From assembly GCA_004321885.1 (NCBI GenBank), contig SCQK01000016.1, positions 1 to 26,422 on the forward strand: a DNA stretch of 26,422 nucleotides. The letters are read 5' to 3'. Made by a program: the position numbers and the translations under genes. The stretch comes from Patescibacteria group bacterium. GTDB lineage: Bacteria > Patescibacteriota > Patescibacteriia > Magasanikbacterales > GWA2-37-8. This document shows, piece by piece, positions 120-23,067 of this stretch (position 1 is its first letter; every line of letters begins with the position of its first letter). Below the pieces are notes generated by a model, which did not search any database, was not told where the DNA came from, and saw only the letters and a list, made by a program, of their open reading frames with translations.

Positions 120-851
120 TCATATTACATTGGTAAAAAAATCATCCACGTCATCATTCTCTTCCAAGGCAGCAAATAATTTTTCCAACTTCTGCCCGGT
201 CGCTTCGTCTACTTGCGCTCCGTCTTTCGCCACCCACCGCAACCCTGATTCCGCCGGTTCAATCCCCAACTCTTTAAGCGCGCCCAAAACTTTTTGAAAA
301 TTTTCCACTTTGGTTCTGATTTCCAAAATTTCTTCAGCGTCAACGATATCCTCGGCGCCCGCTTCAATCATTTTTAATTCAAAATCTTCGCGACTACCCC
401 CTCCTATCTCCCTCTTATCAAGGGGGAGGGAAATCACGCCCATCTGCGAAAACATCCAAAGCACACTGCCGGCGCCGGCCATGTTGCCGCCGCCGGCCGA
501 CAAAATTCTTTTCAAATCCGAAACCGTGCGGTTTTTGTTGTCGGTCAACGTTTTAATCAAAATTGCCACACCACCGGGGCCATAACCCTCGTATAACACC
601 TCCTCTATCTGCGCGCCTTCCAGCTCGCCGGCGCCGCGCTTGATGGCGCGCTCAATGTTGTCTTTGGGCATGCCAGCTTCTTTGGCTTTTTCAATGGCCA
701 GGCGCAAAGAAAAATTAGACGACGCGTCTCCGCCGCCGGAACGCGCGGCCACGCTTATGGCCTTGCCTATTTTGGTAAACAAATTTCCGCGCAAAGCGTC
801 TTGCTTGCCCTTGCGCGCCTGTATATTGTGCCACTTGGAATGTCCGCTCAT
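120..851 (-). CDS. yebC: YebC/PmpR family (DUF28/TACO1) transcriptional regulatory protein
   Basis: 243-aa ORF; N-terminus MSGHSKWHNIQARKGKQDALRGNLFTKIGKAI is the family signature start; length typical; one copy of the 38-bp repeat sits in-frame (encodes ...DKREIGGGSRED...). Confidence 0.92.
   Translation of the reverse strand: MSGHSKWHNIQARKGKQDALRGNLFTKIGKAISVAARSGGGDASSNFSLRLAIEKAKEAGMPKDNIERAIKRGAGELEGAQIEEVLYEGYGPGGVAILIKTLTDNKNRTVSDLKRILSAGGGNMAGAGSVLWMFSQMGVISLPLDKREIGGGSREDFELKMIEAGAEDIVDAEEILEIRTKVENFQKVLGALKELGIEPAESGLRWVAKDGAQVDEATGQKLEKLFAALEENDDVDDFFTNVI
393..430 (-). repeat. copy A of 38-bp GGGGGAGG palindromic repeat (reverse orientation), inside yebC
   Basis: ctaccccctcctatctccctcttatcaagggggaggg = reverse complement of the consensus cctcccc-ttgataa-gagggag-atagg-agggggtag. 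Confidence 0.75.
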
Positions 852-888
852 AGTGTCAGTATTCTACTTCAAAAAAAATACAAAAACA

Positions 889-936
889 AGGATAAAAAAT
901 TTGACCCCGTCCGCGATACAATCTGCGAACGGGGTC
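889..936 (-). terminator. intrinsic terminator after the GC-rich two-gene unit
   Basis: hairpin gaccccgtccgc/gcgaacggggtc (903-936) followed on the minus strand by a U-run (plus-strand aaaaaatt 889-900). Confidence 0.5.
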
Positions 937-947
937 TCCCGGGCCTC

Positions 948-1628
948 CTAAATGTTCGGTTTGGGGACGCGCACGATGCGCGCGTCCATCTTTTCCAACT
1001 TTTTTTCTTTCTCGGCGCGCTGCGCCGGGTCAGTGCAGGCCAGTGCCTCCGACGCCAGCCGCGCCCGCTCCGAGGCCAGCGCCTCGGCCAGCACCGCCTG
1101 GGTGATGGCCTGGATGTGCTCGCCAGGCGTGCTGGCGCGCTTGGCCTTTTCGCGGAACGGAGCCGACGGCGACTCGTCGTCAACGCTGAACTCGGCCAGC
1201 GCCGCGTCCGACATCTCTGGCAGCTCAATGGTGCGCGCCGCTCGCGGAGTTGGCTCCGGCAACTCCGCCTTCACCGCCTGGTGCATGCCTGAGGCGCTGC
1301 GAACAGCCTGCATGCAGGCCTCGCCGATGGACGACGCGGTGTTCAGCCTCGGCTTGTTGACAGGCGGTGCCGCGACGCCGGGCGGGAACGGTATTTCCTC
1401 CAGCTTGGTCACCTTGACGGCGGCCAAACCGGCATCCCGCAGGGCCTGCTCCACCTCGCTCACAATGTGCCGTGAGCGACTGCCCAGGATGAGCCATGTC
1501 GGGCGGCGGAGCTTGATCCATTCCACCAAGCGCGGAACATCGACGTCCCGCACCACCACAACCCCGCTTTTGCACTCCTGGCACTCCATGTCGCCGACCT
1601 CACAGCCGACGACCATGAGCTTCTCCAT
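948..1628 (-). CDS. hypothetical protein (GC-rich; N-terminal Cys cluster C-x5-C-x2-C; Ala/Glu-rich low-complexity C-terminal half)
   Basis: 226-aa ORF, about 65% GC versus about 50% for flanks; start overlaps upstream gene stop by 1-2 nt (operon); shares a repeated segment with the upstream 106-aa protein (GVVVVRDVDVPRLVEWIKLRR vs RVVVVIELRTLEQMLERLRS). Confidence 0.55.
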   Translation of the reverse strand: MEKLMVVGCEVGDMECQECKSGVVVVRDVDVPRLVEWIKLRRPTWLILGSRSRHIVSEVEQALRDAGLAAVKVTKLEEIPFPPGVAAPPVNKPRLNTASSIGEACMQAVRSASGMHQAVKAELPEPTPRAARTIELPEMSDAALAEFSVDDESPSAPFREKAKRASTPGEHIQAITQAVLAEALASERARLASEALACTDPAQRAEKEKKLEKMDARIVRVPKPNI

Positions 1629-1629
1629 C

Positions 1630-1950
1630 TCAATTCCTCCCCGTGGCCTTGGCCACGTTGTTCGCGTTATTTGGAACCCTGTCGTCGAGACGCACCTTCA
1701 CGCTCCGGCGCTCCTCCAGCGTCAGGGCAGCGCGCACGTCGTCCACGCTGCAACCGGCGTCGCGTCCGACGATTATCTCGTTAAACGCGAGATACTTGAT
1801 GCTGCGCAACCGCTCCAGCATCTGCTCAAGCGTGCGCAACTCAATCACGACGACAACGCGATTTTCGCGCGAATCGCTGTGGTACTCCACTTCCCTGTCG
1901 TCGCCGACAAAACCGGCGACGAGCAGAATCCTTCTCACGCGGCGCGGCAT
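1630..1950 (-). CDS. hypothetical protein (GC-rich), first gene of a 2-gene unit
   Basis: 106-aa ORF with SD aaggagag 5 nt upstream of ATG and its own promoter; no family recognised. Confidence 0.55.
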   Translation of the reverse strand: MPRRVRRILLVAGFVGDDREVEYHSDSRENRVVVVIELRTLEQMLERLRSIKYLAFNEIIVGRDAGCSVDDVRAALTLEERRSVKVRLDDRVPNNANNVAKATGRN

Positions 1951-2032
1951 CTTCGCTCTCCTTTTTATCGTCAGCGGCCGCCAGAGCCGCTTGTGTATGT
2001 CAAACTTTTGGCTTTACTTTAAGCCAAAACAC

Positions 2033-2060
2033 CTCATATTACTATATATATTTTACAAAG
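2033..2060 (-). promoter_or_regulatory. sigma70-like promoter for the GC-rich unit
   Basis: minus strand reads TTGACT - 17 nt - TAATAT, then about 75-nt leader with hairpins and SD before ATG at 1950. Confidence 0.5.
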
Positions 2061-2061
2061 T

Positions 2062-2121
2062 CAAGAGGGGTGGAGTAACAAAAGTCCTCCCCCTTTTAGG
2101 GGGAGGACAAAGGAGGGGGTA
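2062..2121 (-). terminator. rpoC intrinsic terminator formed by repeat copy B
   Basis: immediately after rpoC stop the minus-strand RNA folds CCUCCCCC-UAAAA-GGGGGAGG followed by ACUUUUGUU. Confidence 0.55.
2085..2121 (+). repeat. copy B of 38-bp GGGGGAGG palindromic repeat
   Basis: tcctccccc-tttta-gggggagg-acaaa-ggagggggta. Confidence 0.85.
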
Positions 2122-2122
2122 T

Positions 2123-5100
2123 TTATGGCTTGTACCCTGTCCCGGCCGGAATCAACCGCCCGATAATCACATTCTCTTTCAATCCTTCCAAATAGTCAAT
2201 CTTGCCGGTAATTGAAGTGTTAATCAAAACCTTGGCGGTTTCCTGAAACGACGCGGCCGACAAAAAGCTCTGGGTGGACAGGGCCACGCGGGAAATACCC
2301 AAAAACATCTCCCGTCCGGCGGCCGGCTTGCTCCCGTCTTTTTTCGCCTGGCGGTTGGAAAAATCCAACTGGGCTTTCTCCACCACTTCGCCGGGCAACA
2401 AATCAGTGTCGCCGGCGTCTTCCACATACACGCGGGAAAACATCTGGCGGATAATCAGCTCCACGTGCTTGTCGTTCACTTTCTGCCCCTGGGAAGAATA
2501 AATATTTTGCACCTCTTCCAATATATACCTCTGCACCGCCTCGCGGCCTTTGAGCTCAAACAACTGATGCAAGTTGATACTGCCGTCGGTCAGGCGCGCG
2601 CCCTTGGCCGCTTTATCGCCGCTTTTCACCATCAACTTATACCCCAAAGGTATGATATAATCGCGCACGTGCGGACCCTCGTAGGTCAGGGTAATCGTGC
2701 TCCGCTCAATTTTTACCGTCCCCGGGTACTTGGCCGCGATTTCCTCGCCCGACGAACCGCGCACCACCAGCACCTCGTCTTTTTTCACGACGGCCCCGTC
2801 TTTCACCAGCACCTCGTCTTCGGCCTTGGACTTTATTTTCATCTCATCCATGCCGGAAAAATGCACGTGCACTATTTTTTGCCCGCGCCGGCCTTCAAAA
2901 ATTTTCTTGCCCGTGGCCGAGGTGATAATCTTGCCGTCGGCTTCCTCAACTTCAATTTCCCCGTCCACTTCGGCCAGCACGGCCTGGCGCTTGGGCGCCC
3001 GCGCTTCAAACAATTCGTCCACGCGCGGCAAACCCTGGGTGATGTCGCTTTCGCTGGCAATGCCGCCGGTGTGAAAGGTTCTCATGGTGAGCTGGGTGCC
3101 GGGCTCGCCGATACTCTGCGCCGCCACAATGCCCACGGCTGTGCCAAATTCCACCGGCTTGTTGTGGCCCAAATCAAATCCGTAGCACTTGCGGCACACG
3201 CCTTTTTGCAAACGGCACTGCAATACACTGCGCACATGCGCCTCTTCAATCTTGGCTTCCTCTATGGCGCGCGCGGCCTTGTCATCTATCATTTCCCCGG
3301 CCTTCACCAGGGTTTTCCGGCCGTCTTTCACATCGGCCAGCACATACCGGCCCCACACGCGGTCCGACAGCTTCTCGCCCATTTCCTTGGACTGGGCCTG
3401 GGTAAAAATTTCCCCGTTCTTGTCGCCGCAGTCTTCTTCCAAAACCAGCACGTCCTGCGACACATCCACCAGACGGCGGGTAAGGTAGCCGGCGTTAGCC
3501 GTGCGCAGAGCCGTATCCGACAAGCCCTTGCGCGTGCCGTGCGAAGAGATAAAAAATTCCAGCACGTCAAAGCCTTCTTTGAAATTTGATTTCACCGGCA
3601 GTTCAATGGTCTCGCCCGAGGGAGACGCCACCAGGCCCTTCATGCCGATGACCTGGCCCAGCTGGCCCCAGGTGCCGCGGGCGCCAGAATCAATCATGGC
3701 ATACACCGGCCCGCCCGCGTCCAGGGCCTCTTGATTCTTGGCCACCACTTTGTTTTTGGTGTCGGCCCAAATTTCCAAAATTTTCACCAGACGCTCGGAT
3801 TGCGTGAGCAGGCCTTCCTGGTACTGCTGTTCCACCCTCTGCACTGCAACATCGGCCTCGCCGATGAGCTGGGGTTTTTCGGAAATACTGGGAAAATCAT
3901 CCATGCCCAAAGAATAGCCCGACTTGGTCACATAGCGATAGCCCATGTTTTTCAGGTTGTCCAAAAAGGCGGCCACTTCTTCGGCCGAGGGCAAAAGCTC
4001 CATGCACAGGCGGATGATGTGGCCCAATTTTTTCACGCCAATGGTCTCATTGAAGAAAGGCAGTTTTTCGGGCACCACCTGGTTAAACAAAATGCGTCCG
4101 ACCGAGGTTTCCACAAGGGCATTTTCTTCGGCGAATTTGGCATTGCCCGCGAATCGCACTTTAATTTTTTCCTGCAAGCCGATGAGGCGCGCTCTGTAGC
4201 CCCAGATGGCCTCTTTTTCCGAGCCGAAAAATTTCTTGGCCTCGGCTTTTTCGTTTTGCAGTCTGGTCAAATAATAACAGCCCAGGGCAATGTCTTGCTT
4301 GGGGGTAATCACCGGCGACCCGGTAGCGGGCTTAAGCAAATTGCGTTCGGCCGCCATCAGATTGTCGGCTTCCCAGCGGGCCTCGGCCGTGAGGGGCAGG
4401 TGCACGGCCATTTGGTCACCGTCAAAGTCCGCGTTAAAAGCCGTGCAAACCAGGGGGTGAAGCTGAATGGCCTTGCCTTCTATCAGCCGCGGATGAAAAG
4501 CCTGGATGCCCAGGCGGTGCAAAGTGGGCGCGCGGTTAAGCAACACGCGCGTTTTTTTGGTAAGCTCTTCCAGAATGTCCCAAACCTCGTCGTTTTCCGC
4601 TTCAATAAAACGCGAGGCGCTGCGGACGTTGTGCGCCAGTTCGCGCTTTATCACCTCGCTCATGATAAACGGCTTGAAGAGTTCCAAAGCCATGCGCTTG
4701 GGCAAACCGCATTCGTCCATATCCAGCTTGGGGCCCACCACGATGACCGAGCGGCCGCTGTAGTCCACGCGCTTGCCGAGCAAATTTTGGCGAAAGCGCC
4801 CCTGCTTGCCTTTCAAAATATCGGCCAAAGAGCGCAGCTGTCTTTTCTGCCCGGTGGAAGCCGTAACGGTTTTGGCATGGCGCGCGTTGTTGTCTATCAG
4901 GGCATCCACCGCTTCCTGTAACATGCGCTTTTCATTGCGGCAAATCACTTCGGGCGCGTCCAATTCCAGCAAACGGCGCAAACGGTTATTCCGGTTTATC
5001 ACGCGGCGATACAAATCATTCAAATCCGAGGTGGCGAAGCGACCGCCGTCAAGCGCCACCATGGGCCGCAAATCCGGCGGCACCACCGGAATATTCTGCA

Positions 5101-5995
5101 TAATCATCCACTCGGGACGAATGGCGTTGGAAGCAAAACTCTTCAGCACTTTTCTGCGGCGGATAATGCGCTCCAATTTTGACCCCTTGGACTTTTGCTG
5201 TTCCTCGGAAAGCTGTTTGATGGTTTCGGCCACGTTGATTCTCTCCAACAAATTGCGCACGGCCTCGGCGCCGATGCTGGCCTCAAAAATATGGCCGTAG
5301 CGCAAAGACAATTCCTGATATTTATTTTCGGAAATAATCCGCATCACCTGCAATTCCTTCAAATCCTTGTCAGCCTGTTGAAAATCCGCGTCCAGGGCCT
5401 CTAATTTGCGTCCGGCCTCTTTTTGAATTTTTTCTAAAACCGAGGCAGCCTGTTTTTTGTCATTGGCCTCGGCCATGGCTTTTTCCGCTTCCTTCTCAAT
5501 CTGCTTTTTCTTGCTTTTGTATTCCTGGCGCAATAAATCCGAGGCCTCTTTTTTCAAACTCTCATCCACGCGCGTAATGATAAAAGAAGCGAAGTAAATT
5601 ACTTTTTCCAGGGCCTGAGCCGACAAATCCAAAACCAAACCGACCTTGGACGGCACCGAGCGCAAAAACCAAATATGCGCCACCGGAGCCGACAATTCAA
5701 TGTGGCCCATGCGCTCGCGGCGCACCGAAGAATGGGTTACTTCCACGCCGCACTTATCGCAGATGATACCCTTGTAGCGAATTTTTTTGTATTTGCCACA
5801 ATAGCATTCCCAGTCTTTGGTGGGGCCGAAAATTTCCTCGGCGAAGAGCCCGCCTTTTTCCGGTTTTTGCGTGCGGTAATTGATGGTCTCGGGCTTGTGC
5901 ACGTCGCCAAACGACCACGAACGGATAACCTCGGGCGAAGCCAGTTTCAAACGAATGGCGTCAAAGTCAGCCAGGTGCAGGTTGTCTCTTTGCAT
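2123..5995 (-). CDS. rpoC: DNA-directed RNA polymerase subunit beta'
   Basis: NADFDGDQMAVHLP catalytic motif and zinc-binding Cys in N-terminus. Conserved N-terminus ADFDAIRLKLASPEVIRSWSFG begins right after the ATG at 5995. The ORF track extends to a TTG at 6064, which would overlap rpoB. Confidence 0.96.
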   Translation of the reverse strand: MQRDNLHLADFDAIRLKLASPEVIRSWSFGDVHKPETINYRTQKPEKGGLFAEEIFGPTKDWECYCGKYKKIRYKGIICDKCGVEVTHSSVRRERMGHIELSAPVAHIWFLRSVPSKVGLVLDLSAQALEKVIYFASFIITRVDESLKKEASDLLRQEYKSKKKQIEKEAEKAMAEANDKKQAASVLEKIQKEAGRKLEALDADFQQADKDLKELQVMRIISENKYQELSLRYGHIFEASIGAEAVRNLLERINVAETIKQLSEEQQKSKGSKLERIIRRRKVLKSFASNAIRPEWMIMQNIPVVPPDLRPMVALDGGRFATSDLNDLYRRVINRNNRLRRLLELDAPEVICRNEKRMLQEAVDALIDNNARHAKTVTASTGQKRQLRSLADILKGKQGRFRQNLLGKRVDYSGRSVIVVGPKLDMDECGLPKRMALELFKPFIMSEVIKRELAHNVRSASRFIEAENDEVWDILEELTKKTRVLLNRAPTLHRLGIQAFHPRLIEGKAIQLHPLVCTAFNADFDGDQMAVHLPLTAEARWEADNLMAAERNLLKPATGSPVITPKQDIALGCYYLTRLQNEKAEAKKFFGSEKEAIWGYRARLIGLQEKIKVRFAGNAKFAEENALVETSVGRILFNQVVPEKLPFFNETIGVKKLGHIIRLCMELLPSAEEVAAFLDNLKNMGYRYVTKSGYSLGMDDFPSISEKPQLIGEADVAVQRVEQQYQEGLLTQSERLVKILEIWADTKNKVVAKNQEALDAGGPVYAMIDSGARGTWGQLGQVIGMKGLVASPSGETIELPVKSNFKEGFDVLEFFISSHGTRKGLSDTALRTANAGYLTRRLVDVSQDVLVLEEDCGDKNGEIFTQAQSKEMGEKLSDRVWGRYVLADVKDGRKTLVKAGEMIDDKAARAIEEAKIEEAHVRSVLQCRLQKGVCRKCYGFDLGHNKPVEFGTAVGIVAAQSIGEPGTQLTMRTFHTGGIASESDITQGLPRVDELFEARAPKRQAVLAEVDGEIEVEEADGKIITSATGKKIFEGRRGQKIVHVHFSGMDEMKIKSKAEDEVLVKDGAVVKKDEVLVVRGSSGEEIAAKYPGTVKIERSTITLTYEGPHVRDYIIPLGYKLMVKSGDKAAKGARLTDGSINLHQLFELKGREAVQRYILEEVQNIYSSQGQKVNDKHVELIIRQMFSRVYVEDAGDTDLLPGEVVEKAQLDFSNRQAKKDGSKPAAGREMFLGISRVALSTQSFLSAASFQETAKVLINTSITGKIDYLEGLKENVIIGRLIPAGTGYKP

Positions 5996-6008
5996 AAAAG
6001 TATTGTCA

Positions 6009-9000
6009 TTATTTATTTTTTTCTTGAGTACTTTCCGCGAGTTCCTGCCTTTGCTTTTCCTCAAACGCCCGCACCTCTTCCACGGGCCGGTAATCGCCAG
6101 ACTCGCTGCGCTTCAGAAGTTCCACATCCAAACCCAGGCCTTTCAGTTCGCGCACCAAAACATTAAACGACTCGGGCAGATTCACGCGGCTGATGGGCTC
6201 GCCCTTAATAATGGCCTCGTAGGCCTTGGAACGGCCGGGCACATCATCGGATTTGATGGTCAAAATTTCCTGCAGGGTATGGGCCGCGCCATAGGCTTCC
6301 AAGGCCCACACTTCCATTTCGCCAAAGCGCTGGCCGCCGAACTGGGCTTTGCCGCCCAGGGGCTGCTGGGTAATCAAACTGTACGGCCCGATGGAGCGCT
6401 GATGGATTTTATCCTCCACCATGTGATTGAGTTTCAGCATATAGCTGTAGCCCACGGTAACTTTGTGGTCAAAGGCCTCGCCGGTGCGGCCGTCATAAAG
6501 AGCAACCTGTCCGCTGGCCGGCAGTCCGGCTTTGGCCAGCTCTTCTTTTATCTGTTCCTCGGAGAGGCCGCTTAGAACCGGCGTCGCTATTTTGTAGCCC
6601 AGGGCATTGGCCGCCAATCCCAAATGATTTTCCAAAAGCTGGCCCAGGTTCATGCGCGAGATAACGCCGAGCGGGGAAAGAATCACGTCAACCGAGGTGC
6701 CGTCTTCCAAAAACGGCATGTCTTCCGCCGGCACCACGCGCGAGATAACGCCCTTGTTGCCGTGGCGTCCGGCCATCTTGTCGCCCACCTGCACCTTGCG
6801 CATGTCAGCCACTTTCACCTGCACCTGCTTTATCACGCCAGGCTGCAATTTATCGCCGTTTTCCGCCGAGAAAATTTTAATGCCGATAACCTTGCCGTGC
6901 TCGCCGTGTTCCAAATACAAAGATGAATCGCGCACATCGCGGGCTTTTTCCCCAAAAATAGCGCGTAAGAGCCGCTCTTCGGCCGAAAGCTCGGTCTCGC
7001 CCTTGGGCGTGATTTTGCCGACCAGTATGTCGCCGGATTTTACCTCGGCGCCCACGCGCACAATGCCCTCGCTGTCCAAATTTTTCAATTTTTCCTCGCT
7101 GACATTGGGAATGTCCGAGGTGACGATTTCCGGGCCCAGCTTGGTCTCGCGCACGTCTATCACATAGTCTTCTATATGAATGGAAGTAAATCTGTCTTCT
7201 TCCACCACGCGCTCGGAAACAATGATGGCGTCTTCGTAGTTGAAGCCGTCCCACACCATATACGCTACCAGCATGTTTTGCCCGAGCGAAAGTTCGCCCT
7301 GGTTGATGCCCGGGCCGTCGGTTATGGCCTGGCCCTTCTTTACCTTGTCTCCCAAATTTACAGTCGGCATCTGATTCACGCAGGTGGAGGCGTTGCTACG
7401 CACGAACTTATTTAAAAAGTGAGTGTGCTTATTGCCTTTTTTGTCGGTGAGCACCACGTGTTTGCCGTCCATTTCCGTAATCTCGCCGTCGGCTTCGGCA
7501 ATCCTCATGTGCCCGCTGTCGTAGGCCGCGCGCGCTTCCACGCCCGTGCCCACCAGGGGCTGTTCGGGTTTGATGCAGGGCACGGCCTGTCTTTGCATGT
7601 TCGTGCCCATCAGGGCGCGGGTGGCATCGTCGTGCTCCAAAAAAGGAATGCAGGCCGTGGCAATGGAAATAATCTGACTGGAAGAAACATCTACATAATC
7701 AACCTCGCTGGTATGGGCAATGCCCGGATTGCCGTGAATGCGGGCCGGGGTCATTTCTTCCGTAAAATATCCGTCCGCGTCCAATTTTACTTTGGCAGAG
7801 GCGGTAATGGCTTTTTCTTCCCGGAAAGCATTAAGATAAACCACTTCGCTGGTCACGCGCGCTTTAAGCGGAACCTTCTTTTCTTTGCTTTTGGCCAGTT
7901 TGCGCGCGATGTCCTCGGTAATTTTTGTGCCGGCTTTTACGCCGCCAAAATCAGCGCCTAAAATTTCCCCCTCGGTGAAGCGCGGGTCGTTTTCCACTTC
8001 GCGCAAAACCTTGCGGTAGGGTGTTTCAATAAAACCAAAGTCATTGACGCGCGCGAAGCTGGAAAGATGATTTACCAGACCGATGTTCGGTCCTTCGGGA
8101 GTGGCAATAGGGCAGATGCGGCCATAGTGGGTGGCGTGCACGTCGCGCACCTCAAAGCCGGCGCGGTCGCGCGAAAGTCCGCCCGGGCCCAGGGCCGACA
8201 CGCGGCGCTTGTGTTCCAATTCGGAGAGCGGATTGGTCTGGTCCATGAACTGCGAAAGCTGGGAACTCATGAAAAATTCGCGGATGGCCGATATCACGGG
8301 CCGCGCGTTGATAAGCTTGTTGGGTGTGAGCTGGTCAAGCTCTTGGGTGCTCATGCGGTCTTTGATAATGCGCTCCATGCGGGTAAGGCCCACGCGGAAA
8401 CGATTTTGCGCCAGCTCGCCCACGGCCCGGATGCGTCGGTTGCCCAGATGGTCAATATCATCAGGCTCTTCCTGGGTCACGTTCAGGCGCACCACTTCTT
8501 TCAAAACCAAGAGTAGCTTTTCCGGCGACAGCACGCGGTTTTCTTTTTTGTCAAAATCATCGGGCCCATAGCCCAAATCAAATTTGGTATTGAATTTGTA
8601 AACACCCACGCGCCCCAAATCATAACGGTCAAAATTGAAAAACATGGCGTAAATCAAACTCTTGGCATTATCGGCCGTGGCCAGGTCGCCCGGCCTGATT
8701 CTTTTATATACCTCAATCAAGCCTTCATCCGCGTTGGCGGCCAAATCCTTTTTTATGGTCGCGTCAACATAATCCACGCTCGGATGATTGTTCACATCTT
8801 TGAAAGCGCTGACCAGTTCCTCGCTCGCGCCCATGCCAAAAGCGCGCAGGAGCGAGGTGGCGGCCACTTTGCGCTTGCGGTCCACTTTTACCCAGACTGC
8901 GTTGTTCATATCGGTTTCAATTTCAATCCAGGCCCCGCGGTTTGGTATGATTTTAGCGCCATAATAGCGGCGGCCGCGGATGTTCTCGGCCGTGAAAAAA

Positions 9001-13032: not shown

Positions 13033-15336
13033 ATGCCCCGACCTCGCATATACAGGCGAACGCACAAACCTCGCTTTAGTTTGAATCTCAATCCCGACAT
13101 CAGCCGCGGGCTGATTTCCATTTTCCTCTTTATCGTGGGCGGGGTATCGGCGCTGGCCTTTTTCCACCTGGCCGGCGTGGCCGGCGAATTCATAGATTCG
13201 CTTCTCGCCATTTCTTTCGGCCAGGTGCGCTATGTTTTTCCCATCATTCTCATCTTGGTCGGCATCCTCACCCTCAAAGATTTGCGTTACGAATACCGGC
13301 CCACGCACTGGCTGGGCTCCCTGCTTTTCTTTTTAAGCTTCAACGCCCTGGTGCATCTGCAAACACCTGTTTTGGAAATGAAAGACACTGCCCTGCAAGG
13401 CTATGGCGGCGGGCTGGTCGGGTTGGCGCTGGCCTGGCCCCTCGCGACCTATGTGGGCTATTGGGGCGGATTGGTTATTTTAATCGGTCTTGTGCTGGCC
13501 TCGGTAATTTTCCTGTTCAACACCTCGCTGGCGCGCATCGTGGGCCTGCATCGTCAATTTTTTTTCGTGCTGGGCTGGTTTGGCCGGCAGGTCATCGCTT
13601 TTTTCGCCCTTTTCAAAAGACCGGCCAGGGTAAAATTTAAAATCAACGGCGAATACGAAGAACAAAACGAGGAAGAAGCAGAAGACGAAACACAACCAGA
13701 CCCGGAAGATGAAAAAAGGATATTCAAACAGCGCGTCATTGCCAAGCAAGAAGAAAACGAGGTCATCTCGGCTGAAAAAGAAAAAACTGAAGAAAAAATG
13801 GAAGTGACTAGGCCCAAGCCGGTTATTCGCGATTTGCCGCCTCTGAACTTATTATATATTTCCAAAAGCAAACCCACTTCGGGCGACATAAAAAGCAACG
13901 CTGAGGTTATCCGCGACACTTTATTCAATTTCGGCATGGAAGTTGAGATGGGCGAGGTGCGCGTGGGTCCGACTGTTACGCAATATTCCCTTAAACCGGC
14001 CAAAGGCATCAAGCTGAATCGCATTACCGCCTTGAGTAATGACTTGGCTTTGGCTTTAGCCGCCCACCCCATTCGCATTGAGGCCCCTATCCCGGGCAAA
14101 TCACTGGTGGGCATTGAAGTGCCAAATCAAAAAGTGGCTATGGTTACTTTGCGCGAACTGCTGGAAAGCCAGGAATACAAAGCCAGCGATAACCCCATGA
14201 AAATCGCCTTAGGCAAAGACGTGGCCGGCAAGGTCTGGTTCGGCGACTTGCCCAAAATGCCCCACTTGCTCATTGCTGGCGCCACGGGCTCAGGCAAAAC
14301 TGTGTGCATCAACACCATTTTGCTTTCTTTACTTTACCAAAACACGGCCGAAACCCTGCGCCTTATAATGGTAGACCCGAAACGGGTGGAGCTCACCATG
14401 TACAACGGCATTCCGCACCTGCTCACGCCGGTAATCACCGACGCGGCTAAAACCGTAAACGCCTTAAAGTGGACCATCGGCGAAATGGACCGGCGCTTTA
14501 CGCTTTTATCCGAGAGCGGAAATCGCGATATCAATTCCTACAATCGCACGGCCGATGAGCCTTTGCCTCACATTATCTTTGCCATAGACGAGCTGGCCGA
14601 CCTGATGGCCATGGCCGCCAGCGACGTGGAAGCCGGCATCATCCGCATCGCCCAGATGGCGCGCGCCGTGGGCATCCACTTGCTGGTGGCCACCCAGCGC
14701 CCGAGCGTGGAAGTCATCACCGGCCTGATGAAAGCCAATATTCCGGCGCGCATAGCGTTTTCAGTGGCAAGCCTCATTGACTCGCGCACCATCCTTGACT
14801 GCCCGGGCGCGGAAAAATTGCTCGGCCGCGGCGACATGCTGTTTTTAACCGCCGAACTCACCAAGCCCAAACGTTTGCAGGGCGCCTTTGTGTCCGAAGA
14901 AGAAATGAAACGGGTGATAGACCACTTAAAAGGCGACGAGCCGCCGGTTTACGACGACTCCATTGTTTCCAAAAACGCCGAAGTTAAATTCGGAAGCACG
15001 GTAAACATGTTCGGCGGTCCGGGCGACGATGTTGACCCGCTTTTTGAAGACGCCAAAAAAATCGTGCTTGATTCGGGCAAAGCCAGCGCCTCGCTTTTGC
15101 AAAGATTTTTGAAACTGGGCTATGCCCGCGCCGCGCGCCTGCTTGACCAATTGGAAGAAGCTGGTATAGTAGGGCCGGCCGACGGCGCCAAACCGCGCGA
15201 GGTCTTTGGGGAATATTTTTCGGCCGAAAGCGAACTGCCTGAACCAATTGAGAAACCGGAACCGGACAAAGAACTGCCGGCCGAAGAACAAACCATGGAC
15301 GCGGGCGGGACCGTGTTTGACGAAGAAACAAAATAA
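13033..15336 (+). CDS. ftsK: DNA translocase FtsK/SpoIIIE
   Basis: 767 aa; N-terminal TM helices, Walker A GATGSGKT, VATQRPSVEVITG, C-terminal gamma wHTH (SASLLQRFLKLGYARAARLLDQLEEAGIVGP). Confidence 0.95.
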   Translation: MPRPRIYRRTHKPRFSLNLNPDISRGLISIFLFIVGGVSALAFFHLAGVAGEFIDSLLAISFGQVRYVFPIILILVGILTLKDLRYEYRPTHWLGSLLFFLSFNALVHLQTPVLEMKDTALQGYGGGLVGLALAWPLATYVGYWGGLVILIGLVLASVIFLFNTSLARIVGLHRQFFFVLGWFGRQVIAFFALFKRPARVKFKINGEYEEQNEEEAEDETQPDPEDEKRIFKQRVIAKQEENEVISAEKEKTEEKMEVTRPKPVIRDLPPLNLLYISKSKPTSGDIKSNAEVIRDTLFNFGMEVEMGEVRVGPTVTQYSLKPAKGIKLNRITALSNDLALALAAHPIRIEAPIPGKSLVGIEVPNQKVAMVTLRELLESQEYKASDNPMKIALGKDVAGKVWFGDLPKMPHLLIAGATGSGKTVCINTILLSLLYQNTAETLRLIMVDPKRVELTMYNGIPHLLTPVITDAAKTVNALKWTIGEMDRRFTLLSESGNRDINSYNRTADEPLPHIIFAIDELADLMAMAASDVEAGIIRIAQMARAVGIHLLVATQRPSVEVITGLMKANIPARIAFSVASLIDSRTILDCPGAEKLLGRGDMLFLTAELTKPKRLQGAFVSEEEMKRVIDHLKGDEPPVYDDSIVSKNAEVKFGSTVNMFGGPGDDVDPLFEDAKKIVLDSGKASASLLQRFLKLGYARAARLLDQLEEAGIVGPADGAKPREVFGEYFSAESELPEPIEKPEPDKELPAEEQTMDAGGTVFDEETK

Positions 15337-15349
15337 TACCCCTGCCCAG

Positions 15350-15388
15350 CCTTCCCCTTGTTTAAGGGGGAGGAACAGGAGGGGGTAA
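15350..15388 (+). repeat. copy C of 38-bp repeat; its 3' GGAGG serves as SD of the next gene
   Basis: ccttcccc-ttgttta-agggggagg-aacag-gagggggta followed by aactATG. Confidence 0.85.
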
Positions 15389-15391
15389 ACT

Positions 15392-16069
15392 ATGGCGATT
15401 TTTTGCCGCAAAAAAATGGAGCCCCCGCGCACCGCCAGCGCCGCCCTCAAAAAAGCGCGCGCCGACAGACAGCTTTCTTTGGAGGCCGTCGCCGCGCAAA
15501 CTCACATCGCCATTAAATACCTGGAAGCCATTGAAAACAACGACTGCGACGCCCTGCCCCAAACCAAAGCTCACTGTCTGGCCTATGTACGCTCGTTTGC
15601 CGCGGCCGTGGGCCTTAATCCCGACGCGCTGACGCGCAAATTTGACAAAGAAGCCAATTTGGAAAATTTATCTGCGGTCCATCCGGCCAAACATTTAAAA
15701 ATTAAAAGCGGCGCCATCAGCATGCTGGCCAAAGCCGCCGTAGCCGGCGCCATGGTCTTGGCCGTGCTGGGTTATTTGAGCTGGCAGATATACGGCATTC
15801 TCCAACCGCCCAAACTATCCGTGCATTCGCCGGCCGAAGGCATGATTACTGGCCAGCTTTCCATAATAGTCAAAGGCGAAACCCAAAAAGAAATCAAACT
15901 CACCGTAAACGGACAGGAAATAATGGTAAGCGAGCAGGGAATCTTTGAAGCGCCCGTGGACTTGTCAAACGGGCTTAACACCATTAATATAGTGGCTACC
16001 AAAAAGCACGGCAAAACGACCACGGTAACGCGACATGTGATAGTGAATTCTCTCGGTTTTAGAAATTAA
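15392..16069 (+). CDS. rodZ: RodZ-like cytoskeleton protein (XRE-type HTH, TM segment, DUF4115-like C-terminal domain)
   Basis: [33 protein letters not shown]; [21 protein letters not shown]; beta-rich C-terminus; AGGAGG 9 nt upstream of ATG. Confidence 0.65.
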
Positions 16070-16082
16070 AAAATTAAAAATT

Positions 16083-17135
16083 ATGGCAAAGGTATCCGAG
16101 GAGGTAAAGGAGAAACTGAAAGCGGCCGAAAGCGCCATTGAACAAATCAAGACCAAGTTCGGCGACGGCGCTATCATGAAATTCGGCGAGGCTCATACCA
16201 TGCAGGTGGACGCTGTGCCGACCGGTTGTCTGTCTCTTGATATCGCGCTGGGGGTCAAGGGGGTGCCGCGCGGCCGGGTGATAGAAATCTACGGCCCCGA
16301 GGCCTCGGGTAAAACCACTCTGGCCCAGCATATTGTGGCCGAGGTGCAAAAACTGGGCGGCATTGCCGCGTTCGTGGACGCCGAACACGCCCTGGACCCT
16401 GATTACGCGCGCAAAATCGGGGTGAAAGTGGATGAACTTTTAATTTCCCAGCCCGATACCGGCGAACAGGCGCTGGATATTGTGGAAACTCTGGTGCGCA
16501 GTAACGCCGTGGACATCATCGTGATTGACTCGGTGGCCGCGCTGGTGCCCAAGGCCGAAATAGAAGGCGAGATGGGTGATTCACACATGGGTCTGCAAGC
16601 GCGCCTGATGAGCCAAGCCCTGCGCAAACTCACCGGCATTATCAGCAAATCCAAAACCGTGGTAATTTTTATCAACCAGACGCGCATGAAAATCGGCGTG
16701 TACTTTGGCAATCCGGAAACCACCACCGGCGGCATGGCCTTAAAATTTTATTCGTCCGTTCGCATTGAAGTGCGCCGCGCCGCGCAAATCAAACAGGCCG
16801 AGAGAATCATCGGCAACCGCGTCAAAGTGAAAGTGGTGAAAAACAAGGTGGCCCCGCCCTTCCGCACCTGCGAATTTGATATCATGTACAACGAGGGCAT
16901 CTCGCTCTCGGGCGATTTGCTGGACAACGGCGTGCTCTACAAGGTGGTAAATAAATCCGGCAATACCTACGAATTCGGCGAGGAAAAGCTGGGCGTGGGA
17001 CGCGAAGCCGCCAAAAAATACCTGAAAGACACCCCAAAACTAACGGAAAAAATCCGCCAGGCAATCTGGGAAGCGGTGGAAAAAGGCGAAGCCCCCGAAG
17101 AGGAAGAGGCTGTCCCGCCTCCGGCCGAAGAATAA
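16083..17135 (+). CDS. recA: recombinase RecA
   Basis: 350 aa; [11 protein letters not shown] Walker [20 protein letters not shown], acidic C-terminal tail. Confidence 0.97.
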
Positions 17136-17693: not shown

Positions 17694-17767
17694 TCGGGCT
17701 GGTGGGACTCGGACCCACGACCTTCTGCTCCCAAAGCAGACGCGCTAGCCAACTGCGCTACAGCCCG
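17694..17767 (-). tRNA. tRNA-Pro (anticodon TGG)
   Basis: hand-folded cloverleaf: acceptor CGGGCTG/CAGCCCG, D-stem GCGC, anticodon stem TCTGC/GCAGA with loop TTTGGGA, T-arm GTGGG-TCCGAGT-CCCAC; no encoded CCA. Confidence 0.85.
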
Positions 17768-17802
17768 TTTTTGAACGCCCGCTGTTTAAAGCGGGCGTTA
17801 AG

Positions 17803-17874
17803 TGCCGAGGGCGAGGATCGAACTCGCGACGCATAGATTTTCAGTCTATCGCTCTACCACTGAGCTACCTCGGC
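17803..17874 (-). tRNA. tRNA-Phe (anticodon GAA)
   Basis: GCCGAGG-TA-GCTC-AGTGGTA-GAGC-G-ATAGA-CTGAAAA-TCTAT-GCGTC-GCGAG-TTCGATC-CTCGC-CCTCGGC-A. Confidence 0.85.
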
Positions 17875-17891
17875 TATTTTGTTTGGACCCG

Positions 17892-17965
17892 TGGACCCGG
17901 GCGGAGTCGAACCGCCGACCTCCACATTGCAAATGTGGCATTCTATCCAGCTGAACTACGGGCCC
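17892..17965 (-). tRNA. tRNA-Cys (anticodon GCA)
   Basis: GGGCCCG-TA-GTTC-AGCTGGATA-GAAT-G-CCACA-TTTGCAA-TGTGG-AGGTC-GGCGG-TTCGACT-CCGCC-CGGGTCC-A. Confidence 0.85.
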
Positions 17966-23020: not shown

Positions 23021-23067
23021 CTCCTGCTCCGCTTTCATCCCTTTTCTCGGAGCAGGAGGGTTTTTTT
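23021..23067 (+). terminator. intrinsic terminator
   Basis: ctcctgctccg - 16-nt loop - cggagcaggag then gggttttttta. Confidence 0.65.

What the first reader, a model, noticed from the sequence alone, without database searches (positions are those of the whole stretch)
889..2060. GC-rich two-gene islet wedged between yebC and rpoC, with its own promoter and terminator, encoding two paralogous-looking proteins
Positions about 948-1950 are about 65% GC against about 50% for the flanks, which suggests horizontal acquisition.

The unit has a TTGACT-17-TAATAT promoter, a structured leader, an SD, a 1-nt gap between the two ORFs and an intrinsic terminator before yebC.

The 106-aa and 226-aa products share a repeated block (ENRVVVVIELRTLEQMLERLRSIKY vs KSGVVVVRDVDVPRLVEWIKLRRPT). 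The larger protein adds an N-terminal Cys cluster (C-x5-C-x2-C) and an Ala/Glu-rich tail. No known family was recognised.
Basis: partly seen in the sequence, partly recalled or inferred. Interest (0 to 1): 0.55.

Follow-up and report, generated by a model that had tools for sequence, protein, structure and literature searches.

The report
Foreign GC-rich two-gene orphan islet
A 1.1-kb stretch of foreign, GC-rich DNA carrying two real-looking genes with no detectable relatives sits between two core genes (rpoC and yebC) of an uncultivated ultra-small bacterium, at a spot that relatives leave empty or fill with other cargo; its function is unknown.

Summary
Window 903-1999 is 64% GC against 48-55% in the flanks and is the only such segment in 26 kb. 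It holds two minus-strand ORFs: orf106 (1630-1950) and orf226 (948-1628), 1 nt apart. Both have strong Shine-Dalgarno sites. A promoter-like site and a terminator hairpin flank them. Codon periodicity (GC3>GC1>GC2 in every 25-codon block) shows that both frames are coding and that the longer plus-strand ORF is a shadow. An independent assembly reproduces both junctions.

In relatives, rpoC and yebC are adjacent. About 14 loci have gaps of 15-270 nt and 12 carry unrelated cargo, some of it also GC-rich. This is therefore an insertion at a recurrently variable site.

Neither protein has a homologue. orf226 was searched exhaustively against 1.84 billion representatives; orf106 was searched less thoroughly. 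Pfam, NCBIfam, PADLOC, PHROGs, PDB, phage and plasmid searches found nothing. Low-confidence models give only generic alpha/beta folds.

The claimed paralogy is not statistically supported (SW z=1.3; only VVVV is shared). The Cys motif is C-x6-C-x2-C, not x5.

Verdict: a horizontally imported orphan operon of unknown function, which is an ordinary kind of feature. A toxin-antitoxin-like or defence-like role is only a guess. Interest is modest.

The parts
2084..2108 (-). Host rpoC intrinsic terminator (11-bp GC stem, then TTTTGTT). It marks the upstream edge of the spacer that received the insert.
   Evidence: I10; z -3.7. Relatives have a hairpin plus T-run at the same place.
2036..2064 (-). 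Promoter-like site TTGACT-17-TAATAT, AT-rich with host-like composition. It is presumed to drive the islet operon.
   Evidence: 9 of 12 matches. It is a motif only and has not been tested.
2006..2029 (-). Perfect 9-bp inverted repeat TTTTGGCTT-AAAGTA-AAGCCAAAA at the expected transcription start. It could be a 5' RNA hairpin or an operator.
   Evidence: (fold) and sequence.
1973..1991 (-). GC-rich leader hairpin (AGCGGCU/GGCCGCU). The GC-rich foreign segment starts about here.
1958..1963 (-). Shine-Dalgarno AAGGAG, 7 nt upstream of the orf106 ATG.
1630..1950 (-). orf106: a basic (pI 9.5, 16% Arg) small alpha/beta protein with no detected homologue. GenBank TAN32156.1 is annotated as 102 aa, apparently starting at the GTG at codon 5.
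1636..1640 (-). Shine-Dalgarno GGAGG for orf226, lying inside the 3' end of orf106. The layout TGA-g-ATG suggests translational coupling.
948..1628 (-). orf226 (TAN32155.1). It has an N-terminal alpha/beta domain (about residues 1-78) with C9-x6-C16-x2-C19. A Pro/Ala-rich, low-confidence linker follows (about 80-150). The C-terminus is an Ala/Glu-rich helical hairpin (about 156-218). It is an orphan.
892..936 (-). Terminator-like hairpin (12-bp arms at 903-914 and 925-936) followed by AAATTTTTTAT. This is the end of the GC-rich segment.
   Evidence: I7; z -3.3.
861..889 (-). Host yebC-proximal promoter-like site TTGTTT-17-TAGAAT, 9 nt before the yebC ATG. It is positionally equivalent to the yebC promoter of empty-site relatives and marks the downstream edge of the spacer.
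   Evidence: Read by eye. The -35 is weak (3 of 6), so the scanner did not list it. Compare L004: TTGATT-17-TAAGAT, 8 nt before the ATG.

Best explanation
About 1.1 kb of foreign, high-GC DNA (window about 903-1999) was inserted by horizontal transfer into the short spacer between the rpoC terminator and the yebC promoter. The host is a Magasanikbacteria-like Patescibacteria (CPR) genome. This spacer is repeatedly empty or filled with unrelated cargo in relatives.

The insert is a compact operon on the minus strand. Its order is promoter-like site, palindromic leader, SD-orf106, a 1-nt gap with an embedded SD, orf226, and a terminator hairpin.

Both ORFs are genuine protein-coding sequence inherited from an unsampled high-GC donor (a cell or a mobile element). 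They are singletons without detectable relatives.

Inferred, not shown: the two products are made together and probably act as a complex. One partner is a small basic alpha/beta protein. The other has an alpha/beta domain with a three-Cys (metal or redox) loop, joined by a flexible linker to a helical hairpin.

The biochemical function is unknown. My best guess is a self-contained accessory module of the addiction (toxin-antitoxin-like) or defence kind, possibly autoregulated at the palindrome on the transcription start. I give that functional guess only about 15-20%. The confidence below refers to the 'imported orphan operon at a variable site' part.
For: Composition:
- The segment is the single composition outlier in the window.

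Coding:
- GC1/2/3 is 0.68/0.47/0.84 for orf226 and 0.65/0.39/0.79 for orf106. Host genes have a mean GC3 of 0.59.
- GC3>GC1>GC2 holds in every 25-codon block of both ORFs.
- The periodicity phase of the 356-aa plus-strand ORF flips exactly at the orf106/orf226 boundary. That ORF is therefore an antisense shadow.
- Both genes have strong Shine-Dalgarno sites, whereas only 5 of 14 host genes do.

Real junctions:
- Logan contig L001 from run SRR8426592 equals window 600-2123 at 100% and spans both junctions. L002, from a second run, carries the islet.

Insertion:
- rpoC to yebC adjacency is conserved in relatives with 45-72% YebC identity.
- Gaps are 15-270 nt in about 14 loci.
- Twelve loci carry 0.8-4.7 kb of unrelated cargo: a weak, sub-threshold HigB/RelE-like match with an adjacent small ORF read by eye as an antitoxin, PurN-like plus GNAT, HlyIII, pyrophosphatase-like ORFs (read by eye), and unknowns.
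- Three of these inserts are also GC-elevated: L007 0.55 vs 0.40, L016 0.57-0.64 vs 0.41, L017 0.61 vs 0.38.
- The empty-site layout is terminator, then promoter, then yebC.

Orphan status.

Context from the literature:
- Most E. coli ORFans are imported and of unknown function (PMC13012023).
Against: - No mobility gene, tRNA, flanking direct repeat or target-site duplication marks the insertion.
- No donor or homologue was found, so the transfer is inferred from composition and synteny only.
- The closest relative found has only 72% YebC identity, so the time and the exact boundaries of the insertion are not resolved.
- There are no expression data.
- The promoter match is weak evidence: 9 of 12 matches, with 0.6 expected by chance.
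- The structure models are low-confidence (pLDDT 64-65). The domain description and the idea of a complex are therefore tentative.
- orf106 was not searched exhaustively; it went only through the word-indexed search, which passed 11 candidates.
Confidence: 0.72

Rival explanations
1. Inert passenger DNA. The genes were functional in the donor and are still intact because the transfer is recent, but they do nothing for this host and will decay.
For: - The composition is not ameliorated: 64% GC against 51%.
- The genes are singletons found only in this population.
- The three copies are identical, so no test of selection is possible.
- Imported ORFans are mostly of unknown function (PMC13012023).
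Against: - The unit sits behind an AT-rich, host-like promoter and has intact starts, Shine-Dalgarno sites, stops and a terminator.
- Streamlined CPR genomes are expected to lose useless DNA quickly. This is general knowledge and was not tested here.
Confidence: 0.25
2. A new toxin-antitoxin or small defence pair. The two co-translated proteins neutralise each other, and the operon represses itself at the palindrome over the transcription start.
For: - The two genes are small and translationally coupled.
- A perfect 9-bp inverted repeat lies at the predicted transcription start.
- One partner is basic (pI 9.5). The other is mildly acidic and has a long low-confidence, probably disordered region.
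- The unit is foreign DNA in a variable site.
- At the same site, relative L009 has an ORF with a weak, sub-threshold HigB/RelE-like match (E 0.0014, 19.5 bits against a cut-off of 27) next to a small ORF that looks like an antitoxin by eye.
Against: - Nothing matched in PADLOC, Pfam, NCBIfam or PHROGs.
- No DNA-binding domain was recognised.
- The fold matches are generic Rossmann/flavodoxin-like, not toxin folds.
- Cargo at this site in relatives is mostly metabolic or membrane genes, not defence genes.
Confidence: 0.17
3. The two proteins are tandem-duplicated paralogues sharing one alpha/beta domain.
For: - The best local alignment is collinear over orf106 residues 5-93 and orf226 residues 1-80.
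- In that alignment, 5 of 6 predicted secondary-structure elements line up.
- Both begin with a hydrophobic strand followed by VGD.
- A 26-nt DNA match at 77% identity covers that motif in frame (D2).
Against: - BLASTP finds nothing.
- The Smith-Waterman score has z=1.3, and 227 of 2000 shuffles reach it.
- Other 26-nt matches at 72-77% occur in this GC-rich kilobase in other registers.
- A beta-alpha-beta layout is the commonest fold class.
- The models are low-confidence.
Confidence: 0.25
4. These are not genes. The open frames are a by-product of high GC in a non-coding element, or the real gene is the 356-aa plus-strand ORF (952-2022).
For: - GC-rich DNA has few stop codons.
- The plus-strand ORF is longer than either minus-strand ORF.
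- No homologues exist for any frame.
Against: - There is a strong and uniform three-base periodicity in the two minus-strand frames.
- The plus-strand ORF has GC1/2/3 of 0.48/0.68/0.84 over the orf226 part and 0.79/0.39/0.65 over the orf106 part. This phase flip is what antisense shadows of two separate genes would give.
- Shine-Dalgarno sites sit at the correct distance before both minus-strand starts.
- There is no Rfam match.
Confidence: 0.04
5. An assembly or binning chimera joined high-GC DNA of another organism into this contig.
For: MAG contigs can be chimeric, and the GC change is abrupt.
Against: - A separate assembler (Logan) produced a contig identical over window 600-2123, crossing both junctions.
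- The insert is flanked on both sides, within one contig, by syntenic core genes.
- The junctions fall in a terminator and a promoter, not inside genes.
- Caveat: L001 may derive from the same reads as the MAG.
Confidence: 0.03

Closest known systems
Small horizontally acquired genomic islets carrying ORFan genes (as catalogued for Patescibacteria in PMC12455944 and for E. coli ORFans in PMC13012023)
   Same: The composition is atypical, the segment is absent from the syntenic site of relatives, the genes have no homologues and no known function, and the location is a variable spot between conserved operons.
   Different: The islet is very small (1.1 kb, two genes). It has no integrase, tRNA, repeats or phage context, and its donor is unknown.
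Phage 'morons' (independent promoter-gene-terminator units of deviant GC inserted between conserved genes)
   Same: It is an autonomous transcription unit with its own promoter-like site and terminator, and a GC content clearly different from its neighbours. It is wedged between two co-oriented conserved genes.
   Different: The neighbours are chromosomal core genes (rpoC, yebC), not prophage genes. No phage or viral relative was found.
Type II toxin-antitoxin operons
   Same: There are two small translationally coupled genes and a palindrome at the promoter or transcription start. One partner is basic and the other is partly disordered. The unit is mobile and patchily distributed.
   Different: There is no similarity to any toxin, antitoxin or defence family, no recognisable DNA-binding domain, and generic alpha/beta folds rather than toxin folds.
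Flavodoxin-like / Rossmann-like three-layer alpha/beta domains (for example cobalamin-binding domains 4jgi_B, 2i2x_B and 1y80_A; periplasmic-binding-protein lobes; small GTPases)

Membership tests
Horizontally acquired genomic islet | Base and oligonucleotide composition deviates from the host genome | tested here: met
   GC is 0.644 against 0.513. Tetranucleotide distance is 0.608 against 0.307 +/- 0.031. GC3 is 0.79-0.84 against a host mean of 0.59. Only 26 kb of the host genome is available.
Horizontally acquired genomic islet | Absent from the syntenic position in related genomes | tested here: met
   rpoC and yebC are 15-270 nt apart in about 14 relatives. No relative carries orf106 or orf226.
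Horizontally acquired genomic islet | Mobility signatures (integrase or transposase, tRNA target, flanking direct repeats) | tested here: not met
   There are no flanking repeats. The nearest tRNAs are at 17.7 kb. Neither ORF matches a recombinase family.
Horizontally acquired genomic islet | An identifiable donor lineage or homologues elsewhere | tested here: not met
   There are no homologues in 5.8 billion clustered proteins or 1.84 billion representatives (orf226 only). Metagenome, viral, phage and plasmid DNA also gave nothing.
Type II toxin-antitoxin system | Two adjacent, co-transcribed small genes | tested here: met
   There is a 1-nt gap, the Shine-Dalgarno site of gene 2 lies inside gene 1, and there is a single promoter-like site and a single terminator. 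Co-transcription is inferred.
Type II toxin-antitoxin system | Toxin or antitoxin belongs to a recognised family or fold, and the antitoxin has a DNA-binding domain | tested here: not met
Type II toxin-antitoxin system | Autoregulatory operator palindrome at the promoter | tested here: inconclusive
   A perfect 9-bp inverted repeat is present at 2006-2029. It could equally be an RNA 5' hairpin, and binding is untested.
Type II toxin-antitoxin system | Toxicity of one partner neutralised by the other | not testable with these tools
   This needs expression experiments.
Phage moron | Autonomous promoter-gene-terminator unit with deviant GC | tested here: met
   (motif level only).
Phage moron | Located within a prophage or phage genome | tested here: not met
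   The flanks are rpoC (the NADFDGDQMAVH motif is visible) and yebC (Pfam). The window contains FtsK, RecA and MgtC and no phage genes.
Cobalamin-binding domain (Pfam PF02310) | DxHxxG motif after strand 1, and a profile match | tested here: not met
Radical SAM (three-Cys loop after strand 1) | CxxxCxxC, or an accepted variant, within a (beta/alpha)6 core of about 200 aa or more, and a profile match | tested here: not met
   The motif is C-x6-C-x2-C in an 80-residue domain, and there is no Pfam match.
IS200/IS605-type element (subterminal hairpins, no target duplication) | TnpA (HUH/Y1) or TnpB gene | tested here: not met
   Hairpins lie near both ends, but there is no transposase family match. 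orf106 has a single His and no HUH motif. There is no HEARO or omega-RNA Rfam hit.

The most novel reading that the evidence does not exclude
orf106 and orf226 are founding members of an undescribed two-protein system. It could be a new addiction or defence module, or a host-interaction factor of an episymbiotic CPR bacterium. It would be built on a new three-Cys alpha/beta domain and would have been captured from the bacterial host or one of its mobile elements. The rpoC-yebC spacer would be a lineage-wide landing pad for such imports.
Probability: 0.12. Interest if true: 0.55.

Novelty: new member of a known kind. Interest (0 to 1): 0.3.

Why it matters
This is a clean, well-delimited example of recent gene import into a streamlined CPR genome. 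The insert sits between two of the most conserved genes, and the two genes are absent from about 15 billion known proteins.

If the pair turns out to be functional, it would define a new protein family pair. It might also point to the still unknown donor, possibly the symbiont's host.

The recurrent occupancy of the rpoC-yebC spacer, several times by GC-richer DNA, gives a convenient marker site for studying how these bacteria acquire foreign DNA.

As it stands, this is an ordinary orphan-gene islet with no assignable function.

Tried and rejected
Protein family and homology searches, all empty:
- Pfam, NCBIfam, PADLOC and PHROGs on both proteins. The only hits were sub-threshold: NapD at E 0.009 and phrog_2223 at E 0.015.
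- Pfam on the five alternative ORFs of the islet found nothing.
- The word-indexed search of 5.8 billion proteins returned only the query itself for both proteins.
- The exhaustive HMMER search of 1.84 billion representatives with orf226 returned the query itself plus one repeat-rich protein. That hit (P0003, E 7e-4) matches only the low-confidence linker and I judged it spurious.
- tblastn-confirmed scans of metagenome and viral contigs and tblastn against phages and plasmids found nothing.
- phmmer against PDB sequences gave E>=0.26 or nothing.

Structure:
- Single-sequence AlphaFold2 models are of low confidence: pLDDT 65 with pTM 0.58, and pLDDT 64 with pTM 0.35.
- Foldseek against viral structures gave nothing below E 0.01.
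- The afdb50 library was unavailable.

RNA and repeats:
- Rfam at gathering and E-value thresholds found no RNA family in the islet.
- A search for flanking direct repeats or a target-site duplication found none.
- DNA-level comparison of the islet with all 162 fetched loci matched only the two Logan copies.

Ideas rejected:
- Cobalamin-binding domain, radical SAM, zinc-binding anti-sigma factor (no HxxxCxxC), and IS200/IS605. See the membership tests.
- An integron cassette, because there is no attC-like consensus and no integrase.

Other:
- The third word-indexed protein search was deliberately not spent. A two-sequence profile or the shadow ORF could not plausibly have changed the verdict.
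- A literature search for the run accession found nothing.
Full report
**What is there.**
The window is a 26.4-kb contig of a Patescibacteria (CPR) metagenome-assembled genome (MAG). GenBank names the two proteins EPN28_04750 (TAN32155.1) and EPN28_04755 (TAN32156.1).

On the minus strand the gene order is as follows:
- rpoC at 2123-6064. The beta-prime catalytic motif NADFDGDQMAVH is visible in the translation.
- orf106 at 1630-1950.
- orf226 at 948-1628.
- yebC at 120-851, matching Pfam TACO1/YebC at E 3e-47.

The segment 903-1999 is 64.4% GC, against 48% to its left, 55% in rpoC and 51.3% for the rest of the window. All 300-nt windows from about 901 to 1750 are at or above 62% GC. Elsewhere only two isolated windows touch 62%. 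The tetranucleotide distance of the islet from the rest of the window is 0.608. The background is 0.307 +/- 0.031. The contig is therefore not GC-mosaic, and this is a single sharp outlier.

**Are the ORFs real?**
High-GC DNA is poor in stop codons. A 356-aa ORF on the opposite strand (952-2022) is even longer than either minus-strand ORF.

Codon-position composition settles which frames are coding:
- orf226 has GC1/GC2/GC3 of 0.68/0.47/0.84, and orf106 has 0.65/0.39/0.79. This is the normal pattern of high-GC genes.
- The pattern holds in every 25-codon block of both ORFs, including the poorly modelled middle of orf226.
- The plus-strand ORF shows 0.48/0.68/0.84 over the orf226 part and 0.79/0.39/0.65 over the orf106 part. 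That phase flip at the gene boundary is what the antisense shadow of two separate minus-strand genes would give.

Each gene is preceded by a strong Shine-Dalgarno sequence 7 nt from its ATG: AAGGAG for orf106 and GGAGG for orf226. Only 5 of 14 host genes in the window have one, and many look leaderless. The stop of orf106 and the start of orf226 read TGA-g-ATG. I conclude that both ORFs are, or very recently were, genuine coding sequences. No alternative ORF in the islet matches Pfam, and no Rfam family matches it.

**The transcription unit.**
- A TTGACT-17-TAATAT site lies at 2064..2036. It has 9 of 12 matches, and about 0.6 such sites are expected by chance in this 1.6-kb stretch. It sits about 20 nt downstream of the rpoC terminator hairpin at 2084-2108.
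- At the expected transcription start there is a perfect 9-bp inverted repeat (2006-2029), followed by a GC hairpin (1973-1991). The leader as a whole folds only modestly better than shuffles (z -1.9).
- After orf226 there is a 12-bp-stem hairpin (903-936), followed on the coding strand by AAATTTTTTAT (z -3.3).
- Immediately downstream is a yebC-proximal TTGTTT-17-TAGAAT site, 9 nt before the yebC ATG. I read this by eye and its -35 is weak.

These are motif matches, and none has been tested.

**Is the junction real?**
A Logan contig from run SRR8426592 (L001, 1524 nt) is 100% identical to window 600-2123 and crosses both junctions. A contig from a second run (L002) carries the islet. A chimera is therefore unlikely. 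L001 may, however, come from the same reads as the MAG.

**Synteny.**
I fetched 160 loci encoding YebC relatives from genome and metagenome collections. I then located the end of rpoC in each with tblastn.

In the Magasanikbacteria-like relatives (YebC identity 45-72%), rpoC is followed by yebC on the same strand:
- In about 14 loci the gap is only 15-270 nt. It consists of a terminator hairpin, a TTGATT-17-TAAAAT-type promoter and the yebC start.
- In 12 loci the gap is 0.8-4.7 kb and holds unrelated genes. L009 has an ORF with a weak, sub-threshold HigB/RelE-like match (E 0.0014) next to a small ORF that looks like an antitoxin by eye. L017 has a PurN-like formyltransferase plus a GNAT. L014 has a haemolysin-III protein. 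L020 and L065 have ORFs that I read by eye as pyrophosphatase-like. There are also several unknowns.
- Three of these inserts are also GC-elevated: L007 at 0.55 vs 0.40, L016 at 0.57-0.64 vs 0.41, and L017 at 0.61 vs 0.38.
- None of the relatives resembles the islet in protein or DNA sequence.

The islet is therefore an insertion into a spacer that is recurrently variable in this lineage. No integrase, tRNA or flanking repeat accompanies it. The mechanism of insertion is unknown.

**Homology.**
- Both proteins returned only themselves in the 5.8-billion-cluster search.
- orf226 was also scored by HMMER against all 1.84 billion representatives. Besides itself, only one repeat-rich protein matched, at E 7e-4 and within the linker. 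I regard that hit as spurious.
- Degenerate-pattern scans of metagenome and viral contigs found nothing. Neither did tblastn against phages and plasmids, phmmer against PDB sequences, or four HMM libraries.
- orf106 did not get an exhaustive search, which is a gap in this analysis.

**Structure.**
Without homologues, only single-sequence AlphaFold2 models were possible, and their confidence is low.
- orf106 has pLDDT 65 and pTM 0.58. Its predicted order of elements is beta-beta-beta-alpha-beta-alpha-alpha-beta-alpha.
- orf226 has pLDDT 64 and pTM 0.35. It has a beta-alpha-beta-alpha-beta N-terminal domain (about residues 22-78), a poorly predicted Pro/Ala-rich stretch (about 80-150), and a better-predicted helical hairpin (156-218, pLDDT 77-89).
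- The cobalamin motif DxHxxG is absent.
- The Cys cluster is C9-x6-C16-x2-C19, in the loop after the first strand. A metal or redox site is plausible but untested.

**Paralogy.**
- BLASTP finds no similarity.
- The best Smith-Waterman alignment is collinear over about 85 residues and aligns 5 of 6 predicted secondary-structure elements. Its score of 33 is reached by 227 of 2000 shuffles (z 1.3).
- A 26-nt DNA match at 77% identity over the shared VGD motif has equally good out-of-register companions.

Common descent is possible but not shown.

**Interpretation.**
The supported part is this: a recently imported, compositionally unameliorated orphan operon sits in a variable spacer of a CPR genome. 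That fits published pictures:
- Most ORFans in E. coli are imported and of unknown function (PMC13012023).

How the module works is inference only. The coupling of the two genes suggests that the products are made together and act together. Several features make a toxin-antitoxin-like or other self-contained accessory module my preferred functional guess, at about 15-20%:
- a basic small protein paired with a partly disordered larger one;
- a perfect palindrome at the transcription start;
- a mobile context.

It fails every family-membership test that could be run. Inert passenger DNA is about as likely (about 25%).

**Verdict.**
The paralogy claim and the Cys spacing are not. The feature is an ordinary kind of thing, an orphan-gene islet. 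It is made somewhat more notable by three points: the total absence of relatives in very large databases, the size of the GC jump, and the recurrent use of the same spacer in relatives.

Noticed in passing
Loci L003-L020, L065 and L083-L097 (the rpoC-yebC spacer); window 852-2122: The spacer between the rpoC terminator and the yebC promoter is a recurrently variable site in Magasanikbacteria-like genomes. It is empty (15-270 nt) in about 14 loci. In 12 loci it holds unrelated cargo. Three of those inserts are clearly GC-richer than their genome (L007, L016, L017).
   Followed up: partly
Window, upstream of the genes at 851, 11657, 13033, 16083, 19761 and 25615: Most host genes lack a Shine-Dalgarno sequence. 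Several have a TATAAT-like box only a few nucleotides before the start codon (for example TAGAAT-9 nt-ATG at yebC), which suggests leaderless mRNAs. Both islet genes, by contrast, have strong Shine-Dalgarno sites.
   Followed up: no
L007:5172-5900 (+) and L016:1470-2162 (+): Two relatives carry homologous multi-pass membrane proteins (41% identity, no Pfam match for L007) in GC-elevated DNA at the same rpoC-yebC site. Their identity to each other is lower than that of their YebC proteins (60%).
   Followed up: partly
L017:4527-5264 (-): A PurN-like formyltransferase gene at about 0.61 GC lies in a genome of about 0.38 GC. It sits at the same spacer, next to a GNAT acetyltransferase with host-like low GC. 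It looks like another foreign import.
   Followed up: no
Window 965-987 (+): A terminator-like hairpin (GGACGCGC...GCGCGTCC, then a T-rich run) lies on the plus strand inside the 3' end of orf226. It could stop antisense transcription, or it could be a chance match.
   Followed up: no
Window 398-436 (inside yebC): An inverted repeat CCCTCC...GGGGGAGGG lies within the yebC coding sequence (peptide ...ISLPLDKREIGGGS...). It resembles the G/C-run stem of the rpoC terminator. I did not examine whether it is an insertion relative to other YebC proteins.
   Followed up: no
Window 1630-1950 (-): GenBank annotates orf106 as 102 aa, apparently starting at the GTG at codon 5. The upstream ATG, which has AAGGAG 7 nt before it, is the better start and gives 106 aa. 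The Logan gene call agrees with 106 aa.
   Followed up: yes
Window 17694-17965 (-); 13033-17135 (+); 23066-25615 (-): Context genes in the window: a cluster of three tRNAs; FtsK, an HTH_25-domain protein (RodZ-like by my reading) and RecA in a row; MgtC; a Wzy_C O-antigen-ligase-like protein; and an 849-aa protein with lamin-tail and PKD domains.
   Followed up: partly
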